Below, piece after piece: positions 33,326 through 46,206 of a stretch of 64,000 nt of DNA. A model generated the notes under the pieces. It was given only the letters and a program-made list of their open reading frames with translations, had not been told where the DNA came from and ran no database searches. This DNA comes from a virus (taxonomy: Duplodnaviria > Caudoviricetes), in the IMG/VR virus record IMGVR_UViG_3300046786_000293, positions 224,001 to 288,000 of that record; one strand, 5' to 3'. Position 1 is the stretch's first letter. Each line of letters opens with the position of its first letter. The translations under genes and the position numbers were made by a program.

Positions 33326-34269
33326 AACGGATCGTTCTTAAACCAGTTATAGTAACGTTGAAATCCTTCTTCAACGTCCACCTTTGGATCAAATCTAAAG
33401 TCTCGACGGGCGGCATCGATGTTTAATGCACCACGACTTGGAAAGTCTGCATCTTTGTCGCGAACTTCGATTCTGCCACGTCCTGCAATTTTAACTGCGA
33501 GGTTGGCAGCATCTAATAGACTGTAACTGTGACTCTTAGTTATGTTATAGGTTTTATTATTTGCATCAGCGCTAAGTGCAGCCTGTGTAATACCACGTGC
33601 GGCATCTTCTACATATGTAAAGTCGAGGGTCTCTCCTGCACCGTTAACTTTGAGAGTTTGATCCCGCATAGCCGCAAGCATAAATTTCGACACCACGCGA
33701 TCCTCCACGTCCAGTTCTCCGTAAACAGCACTAGGACGAATGATAGTGTAATCAAAACACCCACGACGATGATAATCTTTAACAAGATGTTCTCCCATTA
33801 GTTTCATAATACCATATTGACCTTGCGGATTACAAATAGCATCTTCTTTTACGTCGTCAGTGAAGTCTCCGTATACCATACTACTACTAATGTACACAAA
33901 CTTTTTTACATGATTAATTTTGCTAGCCTCTAGTAGATTAATTAGTCCAGTACTCATAACTTCACTACCCCACGCAGGATTGCCGCTTACTACCTTCTGT
34001 CGGGGGAAACTAGCCAAGTGAATAACTAGGTCTGGGTGAAAGGTAATGAACATATTATTCAGAGCTTTCGGGTCCCTGATATCTACTCTATGTACAACAG
34101 CCCTAAACTTTTTGCATCTTTCTTTGAATAGATATTCTATTTCGTCAAGCGGAACAAATCCGTAGTTAGTTGTATTATCTACAATGAAACATTGATGTCC
34201 TTGTTCTTCTAACATACGAACAACATTGTGACCAATAAAACCGGCGCCTCCGGTTACTAAAATATTCAT
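33307..34269 (-). CDS. NAD-dependent sugar epimerase/dehydratase
   Basis: TGGAGFIG, SSSMVYG, YGIMK (YxxxK), RPSAVYG. Confidence 0.92.
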   Translation of the reverse strand: MNILVTGGAGFIGHNVVRMLEEQGHQCFIVDNTTNYGFVPLDEIEYLFKERCKKFRAVVHRVDIRDPKALNNMFITFHPDLVIHLASFPRQKVVSGNPAWGSEVMSTGLINLLEASKINHVKKFVYISSSMVYGDFTDDVKEDAICNPQGQYGIMKLMGEHLVKDYHRRGCFDYTIIRPSAVYGELDVEDRVVSKFMLAAMRDQTLKVNGAGETLDFTYVEDAARGITQAALSADANNKTYNITKSHSYSLLDAANLAVKIAGRGRIEVRDKDADFPSRGALNIDAARRDFRFDPKVDVEEGFQRYYNWFKNDPFWQNKL

Positions 34270-34508
34270 TTAATTCCCCATTTTAATGTAAAATATGTTG
34301 CGTCTTCTTCTCGTAAGTCTGCAGTGATAACTACCCGCACTCCATATCTTGAAATATCCCAGCCCGTATTCCAAACTGGCGGAGTTATGGCCCGATCCAT
34401 AACCCATTGTCCTTGCTCACTCTTTTCCCATTTATACAACGGATCGGCAATATAAACTTCGATGTCATCTACATCGCCCATATAAAATTCGTGTACGGCG
34501 ATCTTCAA
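34266..34508 (-). CDS. Small protein of the LRW C-terminal motif family
   Basis: Ends [14 protein letters not shown]. Confidence 0.65.
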
Positions 34509-39154: not shown

Positions 39155-39186
39155 CGAAATTCCTTAACTGCAATGTATTTAATGTA

Positions 39187-39429
39187 TTATAACACATTGA
39201 TCTTTTGTTGCAAAGCAAAAAAGGTTGCCGGAATTGAATCCACACAGTCTTTACGAATCCAAATTTCACCGCGCGGTAAAGTAAACCAAGGACGCTCTTG
39301 TAACTTTTGAGTTGTATTATTGTCTCCTAAGTACTGGCGACACAATTCAACTTCGGGCCAAGTTTTAGAATCGAAGTCCCAATTTATAGCTACTTTGAAA
39401 CAAAGGTGTGTTTGTTCGTAGAGTTTCAT
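39187..39429 (-). CDS. Hypothetical protein
   Basis: Start corrected to ATG 39429, overlapping the upstream stop (ATGA). Confidence 0.55.
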   Translation of the reverse strand: MKLYEQTHLCFKVAINWDFDSKTWPEVELCRQYLGDNNTTQKLQERPWFTLPRGEIWIRKDCVDSIPATFFALQQKINVL

Positions 39430-39581
39430 GACCAACCCAACATAAACATTAGTGCTTCGGCTTCTGTGTCAAAATCGTTATAGACCGTACCACGAGTACC
39501 GTAAGTTGATGTAAAGAACAAGGTAGCACGCCACATACCATCTATTTCTTCGATCTCCCAGTGACTTTCTTTGTATCTCAT
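39426..39581 (-). CDS. 51-aa LRW-family microprotein (missed by ORF track)
   Basis: MRYKESHWEIEEIDGMWRATLFFTSTYGTRGTVYNDFDTEAEALMFMLGWS; ATGA overlaps at both ends. Confidence 0.75.
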   Translation of the reverse strand: MRYKESHWEIEEIDGMWRATLFFTSTYGTRGTVYNDFDTEAEALMFMLGWS

Positions 39582-39835
39582 GACCACCTTAACTTACACA
39601 GTAGTGCATCGTTTTCATTAATGAACCAAACACTTTTCAAAAACATTTTGTAAACGTGCGGGTCAAATGTTGCCTGGCACCATTCTGCGATTTTGGTATA
39701 TTTGTTTTCCTCTGACGGCAGGTAAATGGCACTTGCGTATTCTGCACCTTTGTGCCAACCCATGTCCGGTGCCTCGTAAGGATGCATAGGTACCCTAACC
39801 TTCTTGCCGTCAATGTAAATCCACAATTCGGTCAT
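39578..39835 (-). CDS. LRW-family microprotein
   Basis: IAEWCQATF...WFINENDALLCKLRWS. Confidence 0.8.
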   Translation of the reverse strand: MTELWIYIDGKKVRVPMHPYEAPDMGWHKGAEYASAIYLPSEENKYTKIAEWCQATFDPHVYKMFLKSVWFINENDALLCKLRWS

Positions 39836-40185
39836 TTCATTAACTCTTTAATCATGTTGTATTGATCAACAGCCTCCTGAACTTTCTTCCAGGCATCTTC
39901 TAAGGTTACATTGTGTGTTTGTTTTAGTTTACGCAAAGTAACACTGGGAGGATCTTCCTCGACCCAATCATCGGGTGTAGCATCAGTCCAGTAATAAACT
40001 ATAGCATAATGACTATCATCACTTTTGTAGTCACGCCATTCATTCTTTTTCTTATCGTAATAGAGATAATCGTGGTCACTGTCGCCGTCGGCCTTGCCAC
40101 CCATACCCCATCCGCGATAGGATAGATAGTATCCCGATGTATCGGGTTGACGTTCTTCTGTTCGATACCAAATACTTGTTCTCAT
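39832..40185 (-). CDS. Hypothetical protein
   Basis: 117-aa aromatic-rich ORF interrupting the array. Confidence 0.65.
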   Translation of the reverse strand: MRTSIWYRTEERQPDTSGYYLSYRGWGMGGKADGDSDHDYLYYDKKKNEWRDYKSDDSHYAIVYYWTDATPDDWVEEDPPSVTLRKLKQTHNVTLEDAWKKVQEAVDQYNMIKELMK

Positions 40186-40641
40186 TTATTCAGTCTCCAA
40201 TACATTCCACATACCCAGTTTCTCTCGCAACATTTCGTTTTCTTTTTTAAACTTCTTAAGGTCTTGTTCTGTTTCTTGTTTGATATTGTTAGCAACTACT
40301 ACTTCCTTTTCCATTTCGTGAAGTATTTTGGCAATGTTGCGGGCTCGTAGTTGATCACGCTCTTGAGTCATATCTTCAAATTTACATTCCCAACTGTCAG
40401 ATTCACGTCTATAGAAGTCTACATCGTTTTCAAGTTGTCTGATATAATTACCTGGGCTGTAGCTTTGATAATCGATTTCAAATTCAAAAGTCTTTGGGTC
40501 CATACCTGCTGATACAAGATCAGCATATAGTCCACTGGTATCACGCAACAGCATATTCAGTAGTCGCCGGACAACGGGATCTTCGGACTCGAGATCCAAA
40601 TAGTGCAGAAGTTCTGCGTCTGATAACATAGTATAATTCAT
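40186..40641 (-). CDS. Coiled-coil hypothetical protein
   Basis: Start corrected to ATG 40641 (ATGA overlap); heptad-rich C-terminus. Confidence 0.65.
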   Translation of the reverse strand: MNYTMLSDAELLHYLDLESEDPVVRRLLNMLLRDTSGLYADLVSAGMDPKTFEFEIDYQSYSPGNYIRQLENDVDFYRRESDSWECKFEDMTQERDQLRARNIAKILHEMEKEVVVANNIKQETEQDLKKFKKENEMLREKLGMWNVLETE

Positions 40642-40838
40642 GGCTTTCTCAATTCGAACCACATAGCATCTTCTTCACACTCAAACCATATGGTGTCGCT
40701 ACCATAGTAGAGATAGAATTTTCCTGTACTTTCTTGCAGTTGCAAATCACGTTTAACTGTGAGATAGTTCCACCCACCACGTTGAACACGATGCCAATGT
40801 TGTTCGCGAATGCGTTTATCTTTGTTCCAGTACTTCAT
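40638..40838 (-). CDS. LRW-family microprotein
   Basis: MKYWNK...WFECEEDAMWFELRKP. Confidence 0.75.
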   Translation of the reverse strand: MKYWNKDKRIREQHWHRVQRGGWNYLTVKRDLQLQESTGKFYLYYGSDTIWFECEEDAMWFELRKP

Positions 40839-41083
40839 GACCACCTCAATACAAACCACTCAAGGTCTTCTGCATCCCTAAATCGAGCTTCACCGTAGTA
40901 AATGTCATCTAACCACCTAGCTTGCTGTGTGTCAGAATTAAAGCCCGACGGGCCAAATGTCTCGTAACACCATGCACCAATGTCATAATAGTATTTCGGG
41001 GCGGTAAATGCCGCAACGTGCCATGGCCCGCCACCTGAACCATCTACATCCTTCTTTAGCTGATATGTGTGAATAAACATCAT
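40835..41083 (-). CDS. LRW-family microprotein
   Basis: IGAWCYETFG...FRDAEDLEWFVLRWS. Confidence 0.8.
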   Translation of the reverse strand: MMFIHTYQLKKDVDGSGGGPWHVAAFTAPKYYYDIGAWCYETFGPSGFNSDTQQARWLDDIYYGEARFRDAEDLEWFVLRWS

Positions 41084-41295
41084 GCCCACTTCAACAAAAA
41101 TGCTGAATAACTTGCCTCGGCGGGAAATTTAACGATCATTTGGTGTCTTGGATTGATGTCCTGGTAAACTTTGATAGCACCGTAGTCACGCTCCAGCATT
41201 TCCCAAATGCTCATGCCCACAACATCGTAGCCGCCAGCATTGTCCCAATACCAGTTGGCCAGTTTCTTCCACTGCGGTTGTATATCTGCTATCAT
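41080..41295 (-). CDS. LRW-family microprotein
   Basis: MIADIQ...FPAEASYSAFLLKWA. Confidence 0.8.
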   Translation of the reverse strand: MIADIQPQWKKLANWYWDNAGGYDVVGMSIWEMLERDYGAIKVYQDINPRHQMIVKFPAEASYSAFLLKWA

Positions 41296-41594
41296 GCCCA
41301 CCTCAATGTAAACATTATAGCATCTTTTTCAGTTTCAAACCAGAAATTATTACCATTCCAAGCATAACTATCTTTACCAAAGTGTTCTACACACCATATG
41401 TGCATTTCTCGCCAATGCCCTGACCATTCAGCCAATCGGGGATTTACCATATAGTAACCACCACTACGAAACACCGAAGTCCAATCTGGTATTTCTGGCG
41501 GCACTATTTTTAGTAAAACTTCTGCGGCTGTTTGACGATTATACCGCTCACGGTGTTCGGTTCTTCGCTCTATGATAAATTCATGAATGTTCAT
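41292..41594 (-). CDS. LRW-family microprotein
   Basis: MHIWCVEHFG...WFETEKDAIMFTLRWA. Confidence 0.8.
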   Translation of the reverse strand: MNIHEFIIERRTEHRERYNRQTAAEVLLKIVPPEIPDWTSVFRSGGYYMVNPRLAEWSGHWREMHIWCVEHFGKDSYAWNGNNFWFETEKDAIMFTLRWA

Positions 41595-41791
41595 TCCCAC
41601 CTCAGTGCAAACCATTCGGCATTACTTTTAACTTGAAATACATATCCACCATAACCCGATGACAGTAAAAAATGTTCTACGTGGTTTTCTTTCATCCACC
41701 CAATGAGGTCAAGCCAATCTTGAAACGATCTGACTCTATAAACCGGATAGTCGTTCCATCCAGAATACCCTGAGCGTTCTACTACTTTCAT
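41591..41791 (-). CDS. LRW-family microprotein
   Basis: LIGWMKEN...FQVKSNAEWFALRWE. Confidence 0.8.
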   Translation of the reverse strand: MKVVERSGYSGWNDYPVYRVRSFQDWLDLIGWMKENHVEHFLLSSGYGGYVFQVKSNAEWFALRWE

Positions 41792-42015
41792 GCCCACCTC
41801 AACACAAACAACAGTAACTCGTCGTCGGGGAAATCATCGGGAAATACTAAGTTATCGAAGTCCATTGGAACTAAGAATCCAAATTGCTTTAGCCATTTGA
41901 TATAATCGTTAAATCTGAAATGATCATTATCGTCAAATACGTTTGGTGTACCGCACTGGCGGTGGTATTCTGCTACAATATTTTGTAGATAGGGACGTTG
42001 TGGGATAGTTTTCAT
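41788..42015 (-). CDS. LRW-family microprotein
   Basis: YIKWLKQFG...FPDDELLLFVLRWA. Confidence 0.8.
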   Translation of the reverse strand: MKTIPQRPYLQNIVAEYHRQCGTPNVFDDNDHFRFNDYIKWLKQFGFLVPMDFDNLVFPDDFPDDELLLFVLRWA

Positions 42016-42224
42016 GCCCACCTCAACATAAACAACATAGCATCTTGTTCAGATCTAAAATGCCACACAGTTTGGTCTCGACGAAACATTGCGCCCCTGT
42101 AGTCGTCCTGACAGTTTTGTTTGCACCACTCAAACCTTTGATCCTGTCCCCAAACCCAACCACCTGAATGCGGCACTTCTACACGATGTTGGAGATCTTG
42201 ACTGCGACTGTATTTTGCTGTCAT
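42012..42224 (-). CDS. LRW-family microprotein
   Basis: RFEWCKQN...HFRSEQDAMLFMLRWA. Confidence 0.8.
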   Translation of the reverse strand: MTAKYSRSQDLQHRVEVPHSGGWVWGQDQRFEWCKQNCQDDYRGAMFRRDQTVWHFRSEQDAMLFMLRWA

Positions 42225-42505
42225 GCCCACCTCAACAAAAATGCACTAACCAACTTCTCATCATAAAAGTAAATATGGCCACCGTGATAGTCCCAGCTAC
42301 TGGATTCTGCGCCTGCTAGATCACTGAGTGGATTGCCAAGTTCCCACAACCATTTATACAGACCATGCGGCCAGTCTATAGGCGTACGATAAGTTTCCCA
42401 GCGTTCTTTGCTGGGATTGTATTCAACCCGCCACTCGTTTTTGGTATGTTTGCGACGAATAGTTGCCAAAATTCTCTCCACTGGAGTTAAAGGTCCATGA
42501 CTCAT
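42221..42505 (-). CDS. LRW-family microprotein
   Basis: LYKWLWELG...FYDEKLVSAFLLRWA. Confidence 0.8.
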   Translation of the reverse strand: MSHGPLTPVERILATIRRKHTKNEWRVEYNPSKERWETYRTPIDWPHGLYKWLWELGNPLSDLAGAESSSWDYHGGHIYFYDEKLVSAFLLRWA

Positions 42506-42708
42506 GACCACCTCATCAACAACCACTCAACACCGGGCTTGTTCATATAATACACACCCCAACCTACGTGCCAGTGCGGGATAGCATTTTCCTTTAACCA
42601 CGCAGTTACTTTGTCGGACCCAAGAGCGTCGGCACCGACTTCTACCCTGTAATTGTAGGGATATTGCTGTGATACTTTATAGCCGAGATCTTTGATTTCG
42701 ATTTTCAT
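42502..42708 (-). CDS. LRW-family microprotein
   Basis: VTAWLKEN...YMNKPGVEWLLMRWS. Confidence 0.8.
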   Translation of the reverse strand: MKIEIKDLGYKVSQQYPYNYRVEVGADALGSDKVTAWLKENAIPHWHVGWGVYYMNKPGVEWLLMRWS

Positions 42709-42929
42709 AACCACTTCAATGAAAAGAAGAAAGCGTCTTGCTCACGCTCAAATGCAAATTTGCTTTCGTTTGTTTTCGGATCAAATGTAGACTTAAACAG
42801 TCCTGGAATGTTGAACTGGCAATAAATGTGCAATCCCATATGAGCCACGTTATGTTGACGCCTTTGCTCTGTGGTAATTGTAACGGGGTGCCACCCTCTT
42901 CGAACAGCACCCCGCACACTTGTTGGCAT
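42705..42929 (-). CDS. LRW-family microprotein (first of array)
   Basis: Start corrected to ATG 42929, 7 nt after the VWA stop; ends FEREQDAFFFSLKWL. Confidence 0.75.
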   Translation of the reverse strand: MPTSVRGAVRRGWHPVTITTEQRRQHNVAHMGLHIYCQFNIPGLFKSTFDPKTNESKFAFEREQDAFFFSLKWL

Positions 42930-42936
42930 ATTCTTT

Positions 42937-44232
42937 TTACGCACGGGCCAATTTCTTAGCTTCTTCGTAGTGCGCCCACACACCAAACTCGGGCTCGGCA
43001 TCTTTGTTGCCTTTAATAACCCATACAGTATCGCAGTAGTCTTTGACTTCGTCGGGACGCCAGCCAAAGAAGCAGAAGTCTGTAAACATAATCAGCTTCT
43101 TAGGTTCAACGTCATTGTCTTTGAGCCATTCCCACACACAATGCGGATCGGTGCCGCCACCGCCGCCGGGTTGGTATTCAGTAATGTCTGACATGTTTTC
43201 GCTACTAAACTCTACTGGGTTGTAAACTTCAGTATCCCAAGTCAACACACGAACCTTATACTCGTCGTAAGATTCCATGATACCTTTAACTTCACTCAAA
43301 AAGTCTTTCAAGTCCTGTTCGCTAATACTTCCTGAAGTGTCAATAGCAACACAGACATCAATCTGCGTACCGGGCTTCATGCCGGGCATAATTGCATCCA
43401 TATGCCAGCTACGACGGTTAGGGCGCATCCAGCTAAAGTCATCTTTAACAGTACTTTGGATTTGTTGCTCCAACAGTTCACGCCAGTTAACCACAGGCTT
43501 AGTCAAGTCTTTGATCAGACGCTTAACACCTGCGGGCAAGTTACCTGCACCAACTGCCTGTGCGGCCTGCAACAATGCTTCGCGGATCTCGTCTTTAATG
43601 CGCTCACGTTCTTCTTTAGAGAGACGCGGACGACCTTTGCCGTCCTTTTCGTCGCCGTCGCCATCGCCATCGCCGTCACCGGAGCCATCTAAGTGCTCAT
43701 CCAAAACTTGTTGTAGCAAATCGCTGATGTCAATCTTTTCTGCTTTGTCGTACAGGTCGTCGTAGACTTCTTCAGCCGACCAACCTTTGTACTTAGGATC
43801 GTACAGGCAAGGTGTAATCTTGTCACCAATCTTTTGTTCAATCAAATCACTGTTAACACAATAGTCAGCGGCACAATTGAACAGACGCTTGTCGCGAGTT
43901 TCGCCAACACGACCCATGTGGTCGTAGACATTGTGTAGAACTTCGTGGCCAAACAAGAACTCAACTTCTTTGGGTTTGAGTTTGTTAACAAATTCGGTAT
44001 TGTAATAAAAGTTACGACCATCTGTAGCCGCAGTGGTCAGCCAATCGTCTGCATTAACCAAAGACAAACGAGTAGCCAAGTTACCAAAGAACGGGGCACG
44101 AAGCAAAAGACCGATACGTGCCGTAACCAACTTCTCCCGCACTTGTCGATCCAAATTGGGGTCTACGGTATCAGTAAGACGACCGCCAAGTTTATGGGTA
44201 GTTTTTTCTGCACTAGTTGTATTTGTAGCCAT
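42937..44232 (-). CDS. Metallopeptidase-VWA fusion protein (DUF2201-like), MoxR partner
   Basis: TAATDG...GHEVLH (HEXXH), GD-rich linker, MIDAS DTSGS, GGGGT; ATG 44232 has AAGGAG SD. Confidence 0.85.
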   Translation of the reverse strand: MATNTTSAEKTTHKLGGRLTDTVDPNLDRQVREKLVTARIGLLLRAPFFGNLATRLSLVNADDWLTTAATDGRNFYYNTEFVNKLKPKEVEFLFGHEVLHNVYDHMGRVGETRDKRLFNCAADYCVNSDLIEQKIGDKITPCLYDPKYKGWSAEEVYDDLYDKAEKIDISDLLQQVLDEHLDGSGDGDGDGDGDEKDGKGRPRLSKEERERIKDEIREALLQAAQAVGAGNLPAGVKRLIKDLTKPVVNWRELLEQQIQSTVKDDFSWMRPNRRSWHMDAIMPGMKPGTQIDVCVAIDTSGSISEQDLKDFLSEVKGIMESYDEYKVRVLTWDTEVYNPVEFSSENMSDITEYQPGGGGGTDPHCVWEWLKDNDVEPKKLIMFTDFCFFGWRPDEVKDYCDTVWVIKGNKDAEPEFGVWAHYEEAKKLARA

Positions 44233-44256: not shown

Positions 44257-44305
44257 ATTATAGCAGAAAAGCGAATTTCTGCCAAGTAATACCAAGGTAT
44301 TACTT
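44257..44305 (-). promoter_or_regulatory. Early promoter for VWA/microgene operon with inverted repeat
   Basis: TTGGCA-17-TATAAT with TG extension; perfect 10-bp inverted repeat AAGTAATACC-N2-GGTATTACTT (44284-44305). Confidence 0.75.
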
Positions 44306-44751: not shown

Positions 44752-45039
44752 TTACATCCATTTCAATTTGATAAAACTTGCTTCGTTGTCGCTAGCAAGA
44801 TAAATGTAGCAATAACTTCTGCTGGAATTATAACTATCAACATTAAACGCCCATACAGGAGTTTTAAATGACGCATCCCGATAAGTAAACTCGAGTTCAC
44901 AACTCGGGCCCCAAATGGCCCAACAATCGGAACGAATTTTATTAAAGTCTGAATAACCTTTTTCGTTTGCAGTAAACGAAATTCGATATTTGAACTTGTC
45001 AATTCCTTTGTGTCGTCGATCTAACTTTTCTAGTATCAT
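44752..45039 (-). CDS. LRW-family protein directly downstream of the AAA gene
   Basis: Start corrected to ATG 45039; CWAIWG...YLASDNEASFIKLKWM. Confidence 0.7.
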   Translation of the reverse strand: MILEKLDRRHKGIDKFKYRISFTANEKGYSDFNKIRSDCWAIWGPSCELEFTYRDASFKTPVWAFNVDSYNSSRSYCYIYLASDNEASFIKLKWM

Positions 45040-45096: not shown

Positions 45097-46206
45097 TTAC
45101 TTGGCGCTTGCGGCAATAATGTACTTGCCGAAACGCTTATGGAACTCGTCGAAGTTCTTCAACTTGCCAGGAACAAACGGCAGGTTGTAGGTAGTCAACG
45201 CAACACGAGCACCCATAACAGTCAGTTCAGTGGTAAAGTTCTCCATCATGAACTTGAAGAAGTTATCGGCATTGGTATGCCAATCTTCGTTGGGTTTATT
45301 GCCCAACTTTTCTGCACGGTCCTTAAGCTCATAGCACAGGCTAATCACCATAGAGTACATAGCAGAGATTTCTTTGATCTTCAGCTCTTTGATCTTACCA
45401 TCCAACACTTCTTCGGGACGAGGCATTTGGCCTGCAATCTTACGATGTGCCATGAACTTAATAGCAACACCTTCACCAATTGCACCTGCAATCAAGTCAG
45501 TCAGTTCAGTATCAGTACTGTCGTCATCTTCCAACAGTTGGCTCACAAAGGTCCACGAACGCGGCGTAGCAAACGAACGGCTAGAACTACGCGGATCAAA
45601 GTCGTAAAGATCCTGTTTGGCGAAACCAATGTAACCAACCACATCCTTATGGACCTGATTAGTAACAGCCCAGTTCTGCCAGGATTCGTGATCCACACGC
45701 ATCTCCAAGTGAACGAAACGGTTTGCCAGCGGAGCAGGCATACGATAAGTAACACCTTTGTCGCTTTCACGGTTACCAGCGGCAACAACTACAACGTTAT
45801 CGGGCAGGGTATACTTGCCGATACGACGATTCAGAATCAGCTGATAGGCACTTGCCTGGATGCTAGGTGCGGCACTGTTCATTTCGTCGAGGAACAGAAC
45901 AACAATGGGATGCTGAGAGGCAGTTTCTGCATCGGGCAAGTCAATGGGAGGAGCCCAATCCATCTTGCCATTGTCCTTATTGAAGAACGGAATACCGCGC
46001 AGGTCAGTGGGTTCCATCTGAGCAAGACGCAGGTCAATAAACGCACCGCCGAGCTCTCGAGCAATACCTTCAACCACTTCGGACTTACCGATACCCGGAG
46101 GACCCCACAAGAAAGCAGGACGCTTCTTCTTAAAGCATTTCAAAATAGCACGTTTAGCACCATCGCTGGTAACTGTACGGTGTTCGGTTACTGAATCTTT
46201 AGCCAT
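45097..46206 (-). CDS. MoxR/dynein-related AAA+ ATPase
   Basis: GPPGIGKS Walker A, DLRG-P, LFLDE Walker B, AAGN sensor 1, PLANRF arginine finger, PRSW sensor 2. Confidence 0.9.
   Translation of the reverse strand: MAKDSVTEHRTVTSDGAKRAILKCFKKKRPAFLWGPPGIGKSEVVEGIARELGGAFIDLRLAQMEPTDLRGIPFFNKDNGKMDWAPPIDLPDAETASQHPIVVLFLDEMNSAAPSIQASAYQLILNRRIGKYTLPDNVVVVAAGNRESDKGVTYRMPAPLANRFVHLEMRVDHESWQNWAVTNQVHKDVVGYIGFAKQDLYDFDPRSSSRSFATPRSWTFVSQLLEDDDSTDTELTDLIAGAIGEGVAIKFMAHRKIAGQMPRPEEVLDGKIKELKIKEISAMYSMVISLCYELKDRAEKLGNKPNEDWHTNADNFFKFMMENFTTELTVMGARVALTTYNLPFVPGKLKNFDEFHKRFGKYIIAASAK

What the first reader, a model, noticed from the sequence alone, without database searches (positions are those of the whole stretch)
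39426..42929. Cassette-like array of 12 microgenes joined by a repeated stop/SD/start junction
Seen: 12 small ORFs (51-100 aa; ten contiguous from 40638 to 42929) with very different N-termini but a shared W-x3-(F/G)...F-x2-E-x-DA-x2-F-x-L-[RK]-W-x-stop architecture. Eleven junctions share a ~15-bp repeat (coding strand TTGAGGTGG(G/T)CATGA; four exact copies), where the last codons, the stop and the next ATG overlap (ATGA). All eight Arg-Trp endings use the AGG codon, creating GAGGTG, a Shine-Dalgarno element 2 nt before the next ATG. Inference: each gene's tail is both a conserved protein motif and the ribosome-binding site of the next gene, so any cassette inserted, deleted or swapped by crossover at the repeat arrives translationally coupled. 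This would be a plug-in array of variable small effectors with no dedicated integrase.
Basis: partly seen in the sequence, partly recalled or inferred. Interest (0 to 1): 0.9.

Follow-up and report, generated by a model that had tools for sequence, protein, structure and literature searches.

The report
Shuffled phage microgene array with dual-coded junction
A freshwater jumbo phage carries a row of twelve tiny, very different genes of one uncharacterised virus-only protein family, whose last codons (Leu-Arg-Trp-x-stop) also spell a ribosome-binding site and the next gene's start, and related phages gain, lose and swap whole genes by recombining exactly in that 12-25-base junction.

Summary
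Twelve minus-strand ORFs of 51-100 aa (ten contiguous) are joined by ATGA overlaps and a ~15-nt junction, TTGAGGTGGKCATGA (12 matches at ≤3 mismatches, 2.3 expected).

They belong to a large, unnamed, apparently virus-only family: 6,320 clusters at 50% identity, no Pfam or PHROG hit, and a predicted ββαββα sandwich with no informative PDB match.

The tail F-x-L-[R/K]-W is the end of the C-terminal helix. Codon choice there is strongly non-random:
- AGG is 8/8 in the window, against 5.4% of Arg codons genome-wide.
- Across the family it is 84% at the tail, against 8% in the same genes' bodies.
- In unbiased relatives AGG occurs only where the next start overlaps (16/37 versus 0/22, all Lys).

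The vWA-syntenic relatives that read through this site have none, one, or 6-10 such genes there. At least three indels between near-identical contigs have their crossover inside the junction. Homology breakpoints are enriched there (27/48, 8.5 expected).

No integrase exists in the genome; a RecA/UvsX-like gene does.

The closest known analogues are T4-type PeSL shuffling and mycobacteriophage SAS repeats. This is a new variant: the linker lies inside the coding sequence.

Protein function and actual translational coupling remain untested. The scan noted analogous junction-cassette arrays, with other protein folds, on other phage DNA.

The parts
44257..44285 (-). sigma-70-like promoter (TTGGCA-17-TATAAT with TG) upstream of the vWA/peptidase gene; probable promoter of the transcript that runs into the array
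   Evidence: 11 of 12 match. TTGACA-N17-TATAAT plus an AAGGAG SD is conserved at the same place in at least 14 relatives.
42937..44232 (-). DUF2201_N putative metallopeptidase + DUF2201 vWA-like gene (431 aa). It is the conserved anchor; the array starts right after its stop.
   Evidence: Pfam E 5.4e-44 and 2.9e-19; 344 related viral loci.
42705..42929 (-). g1, family member (tail SLKWL, Lys AAG). Probable orthologue of the single family gene that L001-L011 carry after vWA; the array is appended at its stop.
42502..42708 (-). g2, family member (tail LMRWS, AGG)
42221..42505 (-). g3, family member (tail LLRWA, AGG)
42012..42224 (-). g4, family member (tail MLRWA, AGG)
41788..42015 (-). g5, divergent family member (tail VLRWA, AGG)
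41591..41791 (-). g6, family member (tail ALRWE, AGG)
41292..41594 (-). g7, family member (tail TLRWA, AGG)
41080..41295 (-). g8, family member (tail LLKWA, Lys AAG)
40835..41083 (-). g9, family member (tail VLRWS, AGG); the protein that was modelled
   Evidence: AF2 pLDDT 85.9, beta-beta-alpha-beta-beta-alpha.
40638..40838 (-). g10, family member with a decayed tail (ELRKP; AGA AAG)
40186..40641 (-). passenger gene, 151 aa, not of the family by its tail and the family HMM; no Pfam hit
   Evidence: Homologues found only in other family arrays (L082, L100, L140, L161), not in the vWA-syntenic relatives.
39832..40185 (-). passenger gene, 117 aa, not of the family
   Evidence: Homologues in other arrays (L146 74%, L088, L189, L142). 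In L189 it follows a canonical family junction. Runs X3 and X4 hold a form with the g9 tail joined directly to its start.
39578..39835 (-). g11, family member (tail KLRWS, AGG)
39426..39581 (-). g12, shortest family member (tail MLGWS)
39187..39429 (-). 80-aa ORF coupled by ATGA to g12; possibly a degenerate 13th member (tail region FFALQQ)
   Evidence: not hit by the family HMM, no Pfam hit; family resemblance judged by eye only
39186..39214 (-). next sigma-70-like promoter-like site, marking the downstream edge of the variable region
   Evidence: 10 of 12 match. In relatives without an array the gene downstream of it follows the vWA gene directly.
44752..45039 (-). dispersed single-copy family member (tail KLKWM, Lys AAA, plain TAA stop) between the MoxR-like AAA+ gene (45097-46206) and the vWA gene; syntenic in many relatives
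34266..34481 (-). dispersed single-copy family member (tail TLKWGIK), conserved in relatives

Best explanation
The locus is a hypervariable accessory-gene region at the 3' end of the conserved promoter-vWA/peptidase transcription unit of an uncultured freshwater jumbo phage (338.5 kb). It is filled with cassettes of one very large, uncharacterised, apparently virus-only microprotein family.

Each cassette encodes a ~60-100-aa alpha/beta domain. Its C-terminal helix ends F-x-L-[R/K]-W, followed by one free residue and the stop.

In arrays these last codons are written almost invariably as TTG-AGG-TGG-NNA-TGA. The same 15 nt therefore do four jobs: they finish the protein, give a 6-nt Shine-Dalgarno complement (GAGGUG) with the GAGG core 5 nt upstream of the next AUG, hold the stop, and hold the next start (AUGA overlap).

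Shown:
- The architecture.
- The family and its size.
- Synonymous-site conservation that is specific to the junction and tied to having an overlapping downstream start.
- Variable cassette content among relatives.
- Crossovers that lie inside the junction or tail homology (12-25 nt).

Inferred:
- The junction serves termination-reinitiation or SD-assisted initiation of each next cistron on one polycistronic transcript.
- Because it is the only sequence shared by otherwise unrelated cassettes, general homologous or short-homology recombination uses it as a linker. The phage has a RecA/UvsX-like gene and no integrase.
- Any gain, loss or swap therefore regenerates an intact C-terminus plus RBS plus start.

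My best guess for the proteins is diversifying, non-essential, early-expressed host-interaction or counter-defence factors built on a common scaffold. This is a weak inference, about 35%.
For: Architecture.

Family: the profile finds 13 copies in the genome, 604 members in 197 viral loci, and 6,320 clusters at 50% identity in 1.84 billion representatives, nearly all 55-150 aa with the domain ending at the C-terminus.

Fold: AF2 pLDDT 85.9 with the conserved W/F/F/L/W in helices and strands. Only uncharacterised viral proteins match it.

Codons:
- AGG 8/8 in the window against 5.4% genome-wide.
- Family-wide, AGG is 84% at the tail against 8% in the same genes' bodies. Leu TTG is 70% against 20%.
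- In the unbiased L001-L080 set, AGG is 16/37 with an overlapping start and 0/22 without, Fisher p = 1.5e-4.
- Information at third codon positions is 1.2-1.4 bits in Leu and Arg of the junction, against 0.3-0.65 in the other conserved tail codons. The 2-nt spacer stays variable.
- Elsewhere in this genome only 5% of coupled starts have a >=6-nt SD.

Plasticity:
- Among the vWA-syntenic relatives that read through the site there are none, one or 6-10 family genes.
- L016/L017 versus L022 differ by two cassettes, with the crossover inside AGGTGGTCATGA.
- L180 versus L185 show two further indels, with crossovers in 22-25 nt of junction and tail.
- 27 of 48 homology ends lie within 20 nt of a family stop, against 8.5 expected and a maximum of 19 in 2,000 randomisations.
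- One single cassette is shared by L012 and L180 at 90.7% nt identity, with no other nucleotide match at >=88% identity between the two loci.
- Three different contents lie between the g9-like and p117-like genes: the window, L146 and the X3/X4 form.
- Contigs of other lakes diverge from the window at 42012, 41292 and 42504, which are junctions.

Other: no window cassette hits another in BLASTP, and each has a closer relative elsewhere. No integrase or resolvase is present, and one RecA-like gene is. The conserved promoter lies upstream and there is no promoter or terminator signal inside the array.
Against: - No expression or translation data: no RNA run holds the locus.
- Predicted RNA accessibility of the junction does not differ from random array positions (0.40 versus 0.46 +/- 0.14).
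- Part of the family sample (L081-L197) was ascertained with the junction itself, which inflates the AGG and TTG percentages. The unbiased set is small and its members are phylogenetically related.
- Selection for an SD cannot be cleanly separated from preferential propagation of junction-bearing copies.
- Indel polarity (gain versus loss) is unknown.
- All comparisons use metagenome assemblies.
- The host is unknown, so anti-SD pairing is assumed from the universal CCUCC core.
- The functional guess has no direct support.
Confidence: 0.7

Rival explanations
1. Ordinary tandem paralogue family. The junction looks conserved only because the protein needs L-[R/K]-W at its end and the copies share ancestry. 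It has no special role in translation or recombination.
For: The tail residues are part of the predicted C-terminal helix and core. Single-copy, uncoupled members keep L-K-W. Some arrays (L221) do show recent local duplication.
Against: - The window copies are so old that BLASTP finds no pair among them, yet synonymous sites in Leu and Arg are near-fixed on codons that are rare elsewhere: AGG at 5-8% and TTG at 20%.
- Uncoupled members use Lys AAA/AAG instead.
- Breakpoints cluster at the junction.
Confidence: 0.08
2. The junction is kept mainly as a recombination substrate: a self-propagating linker under concerted evolution or copy-choice. Its resemblance to a Shine-Dalgarno site is incidental, and downstream genes are translated by plain AUGA reinitiation.
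For: Crossovers are demonstrably in the junction. Only junction-bearing cassettes can be shuffled this way, so arrays would be enriched for it without any translational benefit. Other coupled genes of this phage mostly lack a strong SD.
Against: The two spacer bases between TGG and ATG vary freely (TC, GC, TT, AC and others), while the SD positions and ATGA are fixed. Simple homogenisation would not produce that pattern. The GAGG core sits 5 nt before the AUG, the usual distance. AGG tracks the presence of an overlapping start.
Confidence: 0.15
3. The family members are clients, adaptors or regulators of the neighbouring MoxR-like AAA+ / vWA-metallopeptidase pair. The array is a set of alternative substrates or specificity subunits for that machine.
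For: One family member sits between the MoxR-like and vWA genes, and another directly after the vWA gene, in many relatives down to ~56% vWA identity. The array shares the vWA gene's transcription unit.
Against: Of the 117 other array-bearing or pattern-matched loci, only 5 show a vWA and 3 a MoxR homologue in the held flanks. Close relatives keep MoxR and vWA with no array at all. No interaction test was possible.
Confidence: 0.15
4. The apparent cassette gain, loss and swapping is an artefact of metagenome assembly collapsing or mis-joining at the short repeat.
For: All compared sequences are assemblies. Several 'joints' have short sides (21-31 nt) that consist only of the conserved tail and could be mis-placed.
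Against: - The repeat (12-25 nt) is far shorter than typical final assembly k-mers.
- L016 and L017 are identical over 12.6 kb in two different metagenomes, and L022 comes from a third.
- The 40186/40841 form appears in two runs of different studies.
- The variable content is flanked by long collinear sequence at 98% identity.
Confidence: 0.03

Closest known systems
PeSLs (promoter-early stem-loops) of T4-type phages: mobile regulatory cassettes that mediate modular shuffling in hyperplastic regions (Arbiol et al. 2010, PMC2839356; Comeau et al. 2014, PMC4122927)
   Same: A short conserved motif is repeated at the boundaries of small, non-essential, mostly orphan genes in a hypervariable region. 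Indels and replacements between close relatives map to the motif. The motif carries expression signals, so shuffled genes arrive expressed. No site-specific recombinase is involved.
   Different: PeSLs are ~100-bp intergenic elements made of a sigma-70 promoter plus a terminator hairpin, so they give transcriptional autonomy. Here the linker is 12-25 nt, has no promoter or hairpin, and lies inside the coding sequence as the C-terminal codons of one protein family. It supplies translational signals (SD, stop, start). Mini-circles were not tested.
Start-Associated Sequences (SAS/ESAS) of Cluster K mycobacteriophages (Pope et al. 2011, PMC3203893)
   Same: An asymmetric ~13-bp repeat containing an SD core sits 3-7 bp upstream of many start codons in the non-structural half of the genome, sometimes including the upstream gene's stop. 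A role in translation initiation was proposed.
   Different: The sequence is different (GGGATAGGAGCCC). SAS precede genes of many unrelated families and are not the conserved C-terminal motif of a protein family. No cassette shuffling at SAS was reported in the passages read.
ATGA/TGATG overlapping gene pairs with intragenic SD: translational coupling by termination-reinitiation (Huber et al. 2019, PMC6728339)
   Same: An AUGA stop/start overlap with an SD inside the upstream ORF; a general mechanism, shown experimentally for 13 of 14 pairs.
   Different: That work treats individual gene pairs. Here one and the same SD-stop-start module is repeated 11 times in the window, is tied to a protein motif, and also acts as a recombination site. 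Coupling itself is untested here.
Integron gene-cassette arrays (own knowledge)
   Same: A one-directional row of promoterless small cassettes behind a common promoter, with cassettes gained, lost and reordered at a repeated boundary site.
   Different: No IntI or other integrase in the genome. No attC-like imperfect inverted repeat. The boundary is coding, and recombination is presumably homologous.
T4-type internal-protein (IP) loci with a conserved capsid-targeting sequence, and the 'linker' homologies at module boundaries of lambdoid phages (own knowledge, not checked in papers here)
   Same: Hypervariable small genes share one short conserved coding or boundary segment that can serve as recombination homology.
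   Different: In the IP genes the conserved segment is N-terminal and has a known targeting and cleavage function. Lambdoid linkers are not translation modules. Here the conserved segment is C-terminal and overlaps the next gene's RBS and start.

Membership tests
PeSL-type modular shuffling (T4-type phages) | Conserved motif repeated at the boundaries of small accessory ORFs in a hypervariable region | tested here: met
   11 junction copies in the window. The region is absent, single-gene or expanded among relatives.
PeSL-type modular shuffling (T4-type phages) | Indels and replacements between close relatives have their end points in the motif | tested here: met
   Three clean events. 27 of 48 homology ends lie within 20 nt of a junction, against 8.5 expected.
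PeSL-type modular shuffling (T4-type phages) | Motif is composed of a sigma-70 early promoter plus a stem-loop terminator (~100 bp, intergenic) | tested here: not met
   No promoter-like or terminator-like site at the junctions, no inverted repeats there, and no special RNA structure. The motif is coding.
PeSL-type modular shuffling (T4-type phages) | Excised mini-circles carrying one cassette and one chimeric motif | not testable with these tools
   Needs outward-facing PCR or long reads from the phage population.
Integron cassette array | Adjacent IntI tyrosine recombinase | tested here: not met
   No PF00589 or PF00239 match in the 338.5-kb, 97%-complete genome, while the controls were positive.
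Integron cassette array | attC sites: imperfect inverted repeats at each cassette end | tested here: not met
   The repeat finder gives no local inverted repeats at the junctions.
Integron cassette array | Common upstream promoter driving promoterless cassettes | tested here: inconclusive
   A conserved sigma-70-like promoter lies upstream of the vWA gene and none lies inside the array. No transcript data exist.
Start-Associated Sequences (Cluster K mycobacteriophages) | Asymmetric short repeat with an SD core 3-7 bp upstream of start codons, in one orientation | tested here: met
   GAGGTG lies 3 nt before the ATG, and all copies are on one strand.
Start-Associated Sequences (Cluster K mycobacteriophages) | Consensus GGGATAGGAGCCC, preceding genes of many unrelated families | tested here: not met
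   The consensus differs. The repeat is supplied by the upstream gene, which belongs to one family.
Termination-reinitiation coupled gene pairs | Overlapping stop and start (ATGA/TGATG) with an SD inside the upstream ORF | tested here: met
Termination-reinitiation coupled gene pairs | Downstream translation depends on upstream translation | not testable with these tools
   Needs reporter constructs or ribosome profiling. No RNA run holds the locus.
Any curated protein family (Pfam, PHROGs) or solved fold | Significant profile or structural match | tested here: not met
   Pfam and PHROGs give nothing below E = 0.05. Foldseek against the PDB gives nothing below 1e-3. The best VIA Z is 5.6, within the stated noise. 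Only unnamed viral clusters match.

The most novel reading that the evidence does not exclude
The LRW tail is a portable, integrase-free cassette linker. It is a piece of protein-coding sequence that has been co-opted both as the ribosome-binding and start module and as the recombination site. This would let a very large pool of microprotein genes, and hitch-hiking unrelated genes, circulate among unrelated freshwater phages and plug into any existing array already expressed. That would be a translational, coding-sequence counterpart of PeSLs and integrons, possibly with excised mini-circle intermediates.
Probability: 0.35. Interest if true: 0.8.

Novelty: new variant of a known kind. Interest (0 to 1): 0.62.

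Why it matters
How phages acquire and shuffle their many small orphan genes is an old question, going back to the 'linker' idea of modular phage evolution. PeSLs are among the few worked examples.

This locus gives a second, mechanistically different example, with unusually clean evidence:
- The linker is only 12-25 nt.
- It lies within a reading frame.
- It is constrained at once as protein, RBS, stop and start.
- Its use as a crossover point can be read directly from near-identical contigs.

The work also defines a very large, unnamed, apparently virus-only microprotein family (thousands of 50% clusters) that current annotation resources do not recognise. It offers a simple DNA signature, GAGGTGG-NN-ATGA repeated every ~200 nt, for finding such arrays.

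If the proteins prove to be host-takeover or counter-defence factors, the arrays would be a rich and easily mined source of them.

Tried and rejected
- **Pfam and PHROGs** on ten members: nothing.
- **First search for related loci with the family alignment:** failed because no block was conserved enough. I used the neighbouring vWA gene instead.
- **Word-based homology search with g7:** only four close relatives, none named.
- **tblastn of g9 and of a typical database member against 50,697 deposited phage genomes:** no match. The family is so far seen only in uncultured phages.
- **Fold searches:** no informative PDB match.
- **Two-junction pattern scan of 185,579 prokaryote genomes:** 28 hits. 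26 are chance or simple repeats (for example L215, a His/Pro-rich tandem repeat). Only two short contigs binned into Bacteroidota MAGs hold real arrays. I therefore make no host call. The conserved TTGACA/TATAAT promoter and AAGGAG SD do not fit the Bacteroidota promoter type as I know it, so these contigs may have been mis-binned.
- **RNA accessibility of the junction versus random array positions:** no difference.
- **RNA-seq evidence:** no RNA run holds the locus.
- **Programmed frameshifting into fusion proteins:** considered and dropped. There is no slippery site, although natural in-frame two-domain fusions of the family exist.
- **A Chi-like recombination hotspot** (GGTGG core shared with the E. 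coli Chi sequence): considered, but it cannot be tested here and is not needed to explain the data.
- **Several 'joints'** have short sides of 21-26 nt made only of the conserved tail. I did not count these as independent events.

Full report
**Source.** The window is G000:C1:224001-288000 of an IMG/VR virus record of 338,510 bp, rated 97% complete and linear. Runs that hold the stretch are freshwater, lake, estuary and drinking-water metagenomes. The vWA gene next to the array is 37-45% identical to genes of jumbo phages such as PA5oct, Atu_ph07 and Phosso. No deposited phage matches the locus at DNA level.

**Observation.** On the minus strand, twelve ORFs of 51-100 aa carry a common C-terminal pattern, W-x(3)-F/G ... 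F-x-x-E-x-D-A-x-x-F-x-L-[R/K]-W-x-stop. Ten are contiguous (42929 to 40638). Two unrelated genes of 151 and 117 aa follow, and then two more members (39835 to 39426).
- Every boundary in the chain but one is an ATGA overlap.
- The 15-mer TTGAGGTGGKCATGA has 5 exact and 12 matches at ≤3 mismatches, against 2.3 expected; no shuffle reached 12.
- The repeat finder recovers a 12-copy 28-nt family and a 9-copy 48-nt family on its own, and finds no inverted repeats at the junctions.
- In the whole genome, [AG]AGGTGGNNATGA occurs eight times, all in the array.
- All eight Arg-Trp tails use AGG, which is 5.4% of Arg codons in the genome's long ORFs. Arg before Trp is normally CGT.

**What the genes are.** Pfam and PHROGs give nothing.
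- A profile built from the twelve copies and iterated over fetched viral loci finds 604 members in 197 loci, forming 531 clusters at 90%.
- A 62-sequence profile finds 6,320 representatives at E ≤ 1e-3 among 1.84 billion 50%-clusters. Almost all are 55-150 aa with the domain ending at the last or next-to-last residue.
- A few are in-frame two-domain fusions or carry another N-terminal domain.
- AlphaFold2 on g9 with that alignment gives pLDDT 85.9 and a β-β-α-β-β-α sandwich. The conserved Trp, Phe, Phe, Leu and Trp sit in the helices and strands, so the tail is a structural part of the domain.
- Foldseek against the PDB has no hit below 1e-3. The exhaustive aligner tops out at Z 5.6 (DCoH, BMC and ACT-like two-layer sandwiches), below the tool's stated noise level.
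- BFVD, the ESM Atlas structure search and the language-model search return only unnamed viral clusters.
- tblastn against 50,697 deposited phage genomes finds nothing.
- A scan of one genome per prokaryote species finds real arrays only on two short contigs binned into Bacteroidota MAGs.
- The family therefore looks virus-specific, is uncharacterised, and is so far seen only in uncultured phages.

**Genomic setting.** Upstream lie a MoxR-like AAA+ gene, a single-copy family member, a 147-aa ORF and a DUF2201_N/DUF2201 metallopeptidase-vWA gene.
- The vWA gene has a sigma-70-like promoter (11 of 12 match) and an AAGGAG SD. Both are conserved in at least 14 relatives.
- No promoter-like or convincing terminator-like site lies inside the array. 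The next promoter-like site is at its downstream edge.
- Using the vWA protein as anchor, 80 related loci were fetched.
- In L013, L018, L020, L024 and L044 the vWA gene is followed directly by the orthologue of window gene 39154-38855.
- L001-L011 have one family gene there, ending L-K-W-L with a plain stop and probably orthologous to g1.
- L012, L016/L017 and L022 have 6-10 family genes.
- The window has 12 family genes plus 3 others.
- The site is thus a hypervariable region appended to the end of a conserved transcription unit.

**Is the junction more than protein constraint?** Yes.
1. Within the same genes, AGG is 8% of Arg codons in the bodies but 84% at the tail position of genes with an overlapping downstream start. 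Leu TTG is 20% against 70%.
2. In the loci ascertained through vWA (no bias toward the junction), AGG is used in 16 of 37 tails followed by an overlapping start and in 0 of 22 tails without one. Those 22 all use Lys AAA/AAG. Fisher p = 1.5e-4.
3. Per-position information is 1.2-1.4 bits at the third positions of the junction Leu and Arg. It is 0.3-0.65 at third positions of the other conserved tail codons. The two bases between TGG and ATG remain variable, and conservation stops right after ATGA.
4. Exactly one residue follows Trp in 404 of 486 classified tails, which fixes the SD-to-AUG distance.
5. Elsewhere in this genome strong SDs are rare: a ≥6-nt match occurs in 5% of coupled and 11% of spaced starts. 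They are of the AAGGAG type.
6. The window copies are ancient. No pair is detected by BLASTP, and each has a closer relative in another phage contig, for example g9 at 69% to L146. Identical 15-mers therefore cannot be leftover identity from recent duplication.

GAGGUG is a perfect complement of the CACCUC in the universal 16S 3' tail (established knowledge). ATGA pairs with intragenic SDs are known to be translationally coupled (PMC6728339). The dual-use reading is well supported comparatively but has not been demonstrated.

**Is the junction a recombination site?** Near-identical contigs differ by whole cassettes, with the crossover in the junction.
- L016 and L017 (two metagenomes, identical over 12.6 kb) carry cassettes D and E between C and F. 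L022 (98.6% identical over 12 kb) joins C directly to F. The switch lies within AGGTGGTCATGA.
- L180 and L185 differ by a three-cassette and a two-cassette indel, with crossovers inside 22-25 nt of shared tail and junction.
- L110/L111 and L091/L191 show replacements bounded by family stop codons.
- Over all pairs, 27 of 48 internal homology ends lie within 20 nt of a family stop, against 8.5 expected and a maximum of 19 in 2,000 randomisations. Most of the rest lie 22-35 nt upstream in the conserved tail, or at the first cassette's start.
- L012 and L180 share exactly one cassette at 90.7% nt identity and have no other nucleotide match at ≥88% identity.
- Between homologues of g9 and of the 117-aa passenger gene there are three different contents. 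The window has g10 plus the 151-aa gene. L146 has two other family cassettes. A form present in runs X3 and X4, from different studies, has nothing between them: the g9 tail is joined to the passenger's start through a canonical TTGAGGTGGGAATGA junction.
- Contigs from other lakes diverge from the window exactly at 42012, 41292 and 42504.
- After each event the new boundary is again a complete tail-SD-stop-start module.
- The genome has no tyrosine or serine recombinase and does have a RecA/UvsX-like gene, so general or short-homology recombination is the likely agent. This last step is inferred.

**Spread.** About 90 of them carry family members, up to 15 per held stretch. Only 5 of these show a vWA homologue in the held flanks, so the arrays are not tied to the MoxR/vWA context in general. 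The two passenger genes of the window have homologues only in other such arrays. Unrelated genes therefore hitch-hike. One 6.4-kb contig has 17 contiguous cassettes whose neighbours are similar, so local duplication also occurs.

**Comparison with known systems.**
- The closest analogue is PeSL-mediated modular shuffling in T4-type phages: repeated promoter-terminator cassettes at the borders of orphan genes, with indels mapping to them and shuffled genes arriving with their own expression signals (PMC2839356, PMC4122927).
- The SAS repeats of Cluster K mycobacteriophages are a repeated SD-containing element just upstream of start codons (PMC3203893).
- The present case shares the logic but fails the defining composition of both. 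It has no promoter, no hairpin and a different consensus.
- It differs in that the linker is coding sequence belonging to one protein family and provides translational rather than transcriptional signals.
- It is not an integron: it has no integrase and no attC.
- I therefore file it as a new variant of a known kind.
- Earlier notes of this scan describe analogous junction-joined arrays with other folds (SH3-like, zinc ribbon) on other phage DNA. I did not test those.

**Limits.**
- There are no expression data, and no structural signal in the mRNA.
- The host is unknown and the protein function is unknown.
- The early-accessory or counter-defence guess rests only on position behind a host-type promoter, dispensability, diversity and virus restriction.
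- The MoxR/vWA-client idea raised by another first-reader note fits the conserved single-copy members but not the arrays at large.

Noticed in passing
window 44257-44285 (-) and L005, L011, L012, L013, L016, L018, L020, L022, L023, L024, L044, L047, L050, L065, L076 upstream of the vWA gene: A near-consensus TTGACA-N17-TATAAT promoter followed by an AAGGAG Shine-Dalgarno site is conserved upstream of the DUF2201 vWA/peptidase gene across relatives down to ~56% protein identity. This suggests host-RNA-polymerase (early) expression and a host that uses classical sigma-70 and SD signals.
   Followed up: partly
window 40186-40641 (-) and 39832-40185 (-): The two non-family genes inside the array (151 aa and 117 aa) have homologues only in other LRW arrays (L082, L088, L100, L140, L142, L146, L161, L189) and none in the vWA-syntenic relatives. 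They seem to travel with the arrays as hitch-hiking cassettes.
   Followed up: partly
window 44752-45039 (-); L001-L025 and others just upstream of the vWA gene: A single-copy family member (Lys-type tail, plain stop) is syntenic between the MoxR-like AAA+ gene and the vWA/peptidase gene in many relatives. This hints at a functional tie between that particular member and the MoxR/vWA pair.
   Followed up: partly
L221:38-3693 (+): A 6.4-kb contig binned into a Bacteroidota MAG (UBA11400) carries 17 contiguous family cassettes with ATGA, TAATG and GTGATG junctions. Neighbouring cassettes are clearly similar (recent local duplication), and the tails drift from RW to RY and RF.
   Followed up: partly
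P0006, P0012, P0044 (database proteins): Natural in-frame fusions of two family domains (122 and 143 aa) exist. So does a protein with N-terminal short repeats plus a C-terminal family domain (191 aa). The domain can therefore be used as a module.
   Followed up: no
G000:C1:130141-130839 (-): The only recombinase-type gene found in the genome is RecA/UvsX-like (PF00154, E 1.3e-12). No tyrosine or serine recombinase is present.
   Followed up: partly
window 43525-43725 (inside the vWA gene): Contigs of other runs pile up and diverge here, with loose ends and small insertions (for example a TCA insertion at 43651). This is the Gly/Asp-rich linker between the peptidase and vWA domains, which appears to vary in length among strains.
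   Followed up: no
L215:922-5256: A Rubritalea MAG contig matched the two-junction DNA pattern three times. It is an unrelated long tandem repeat encoding a His/Pro/Ser-rich reading frame, so this is a false positive of the pattern search.
   Followed up: yes
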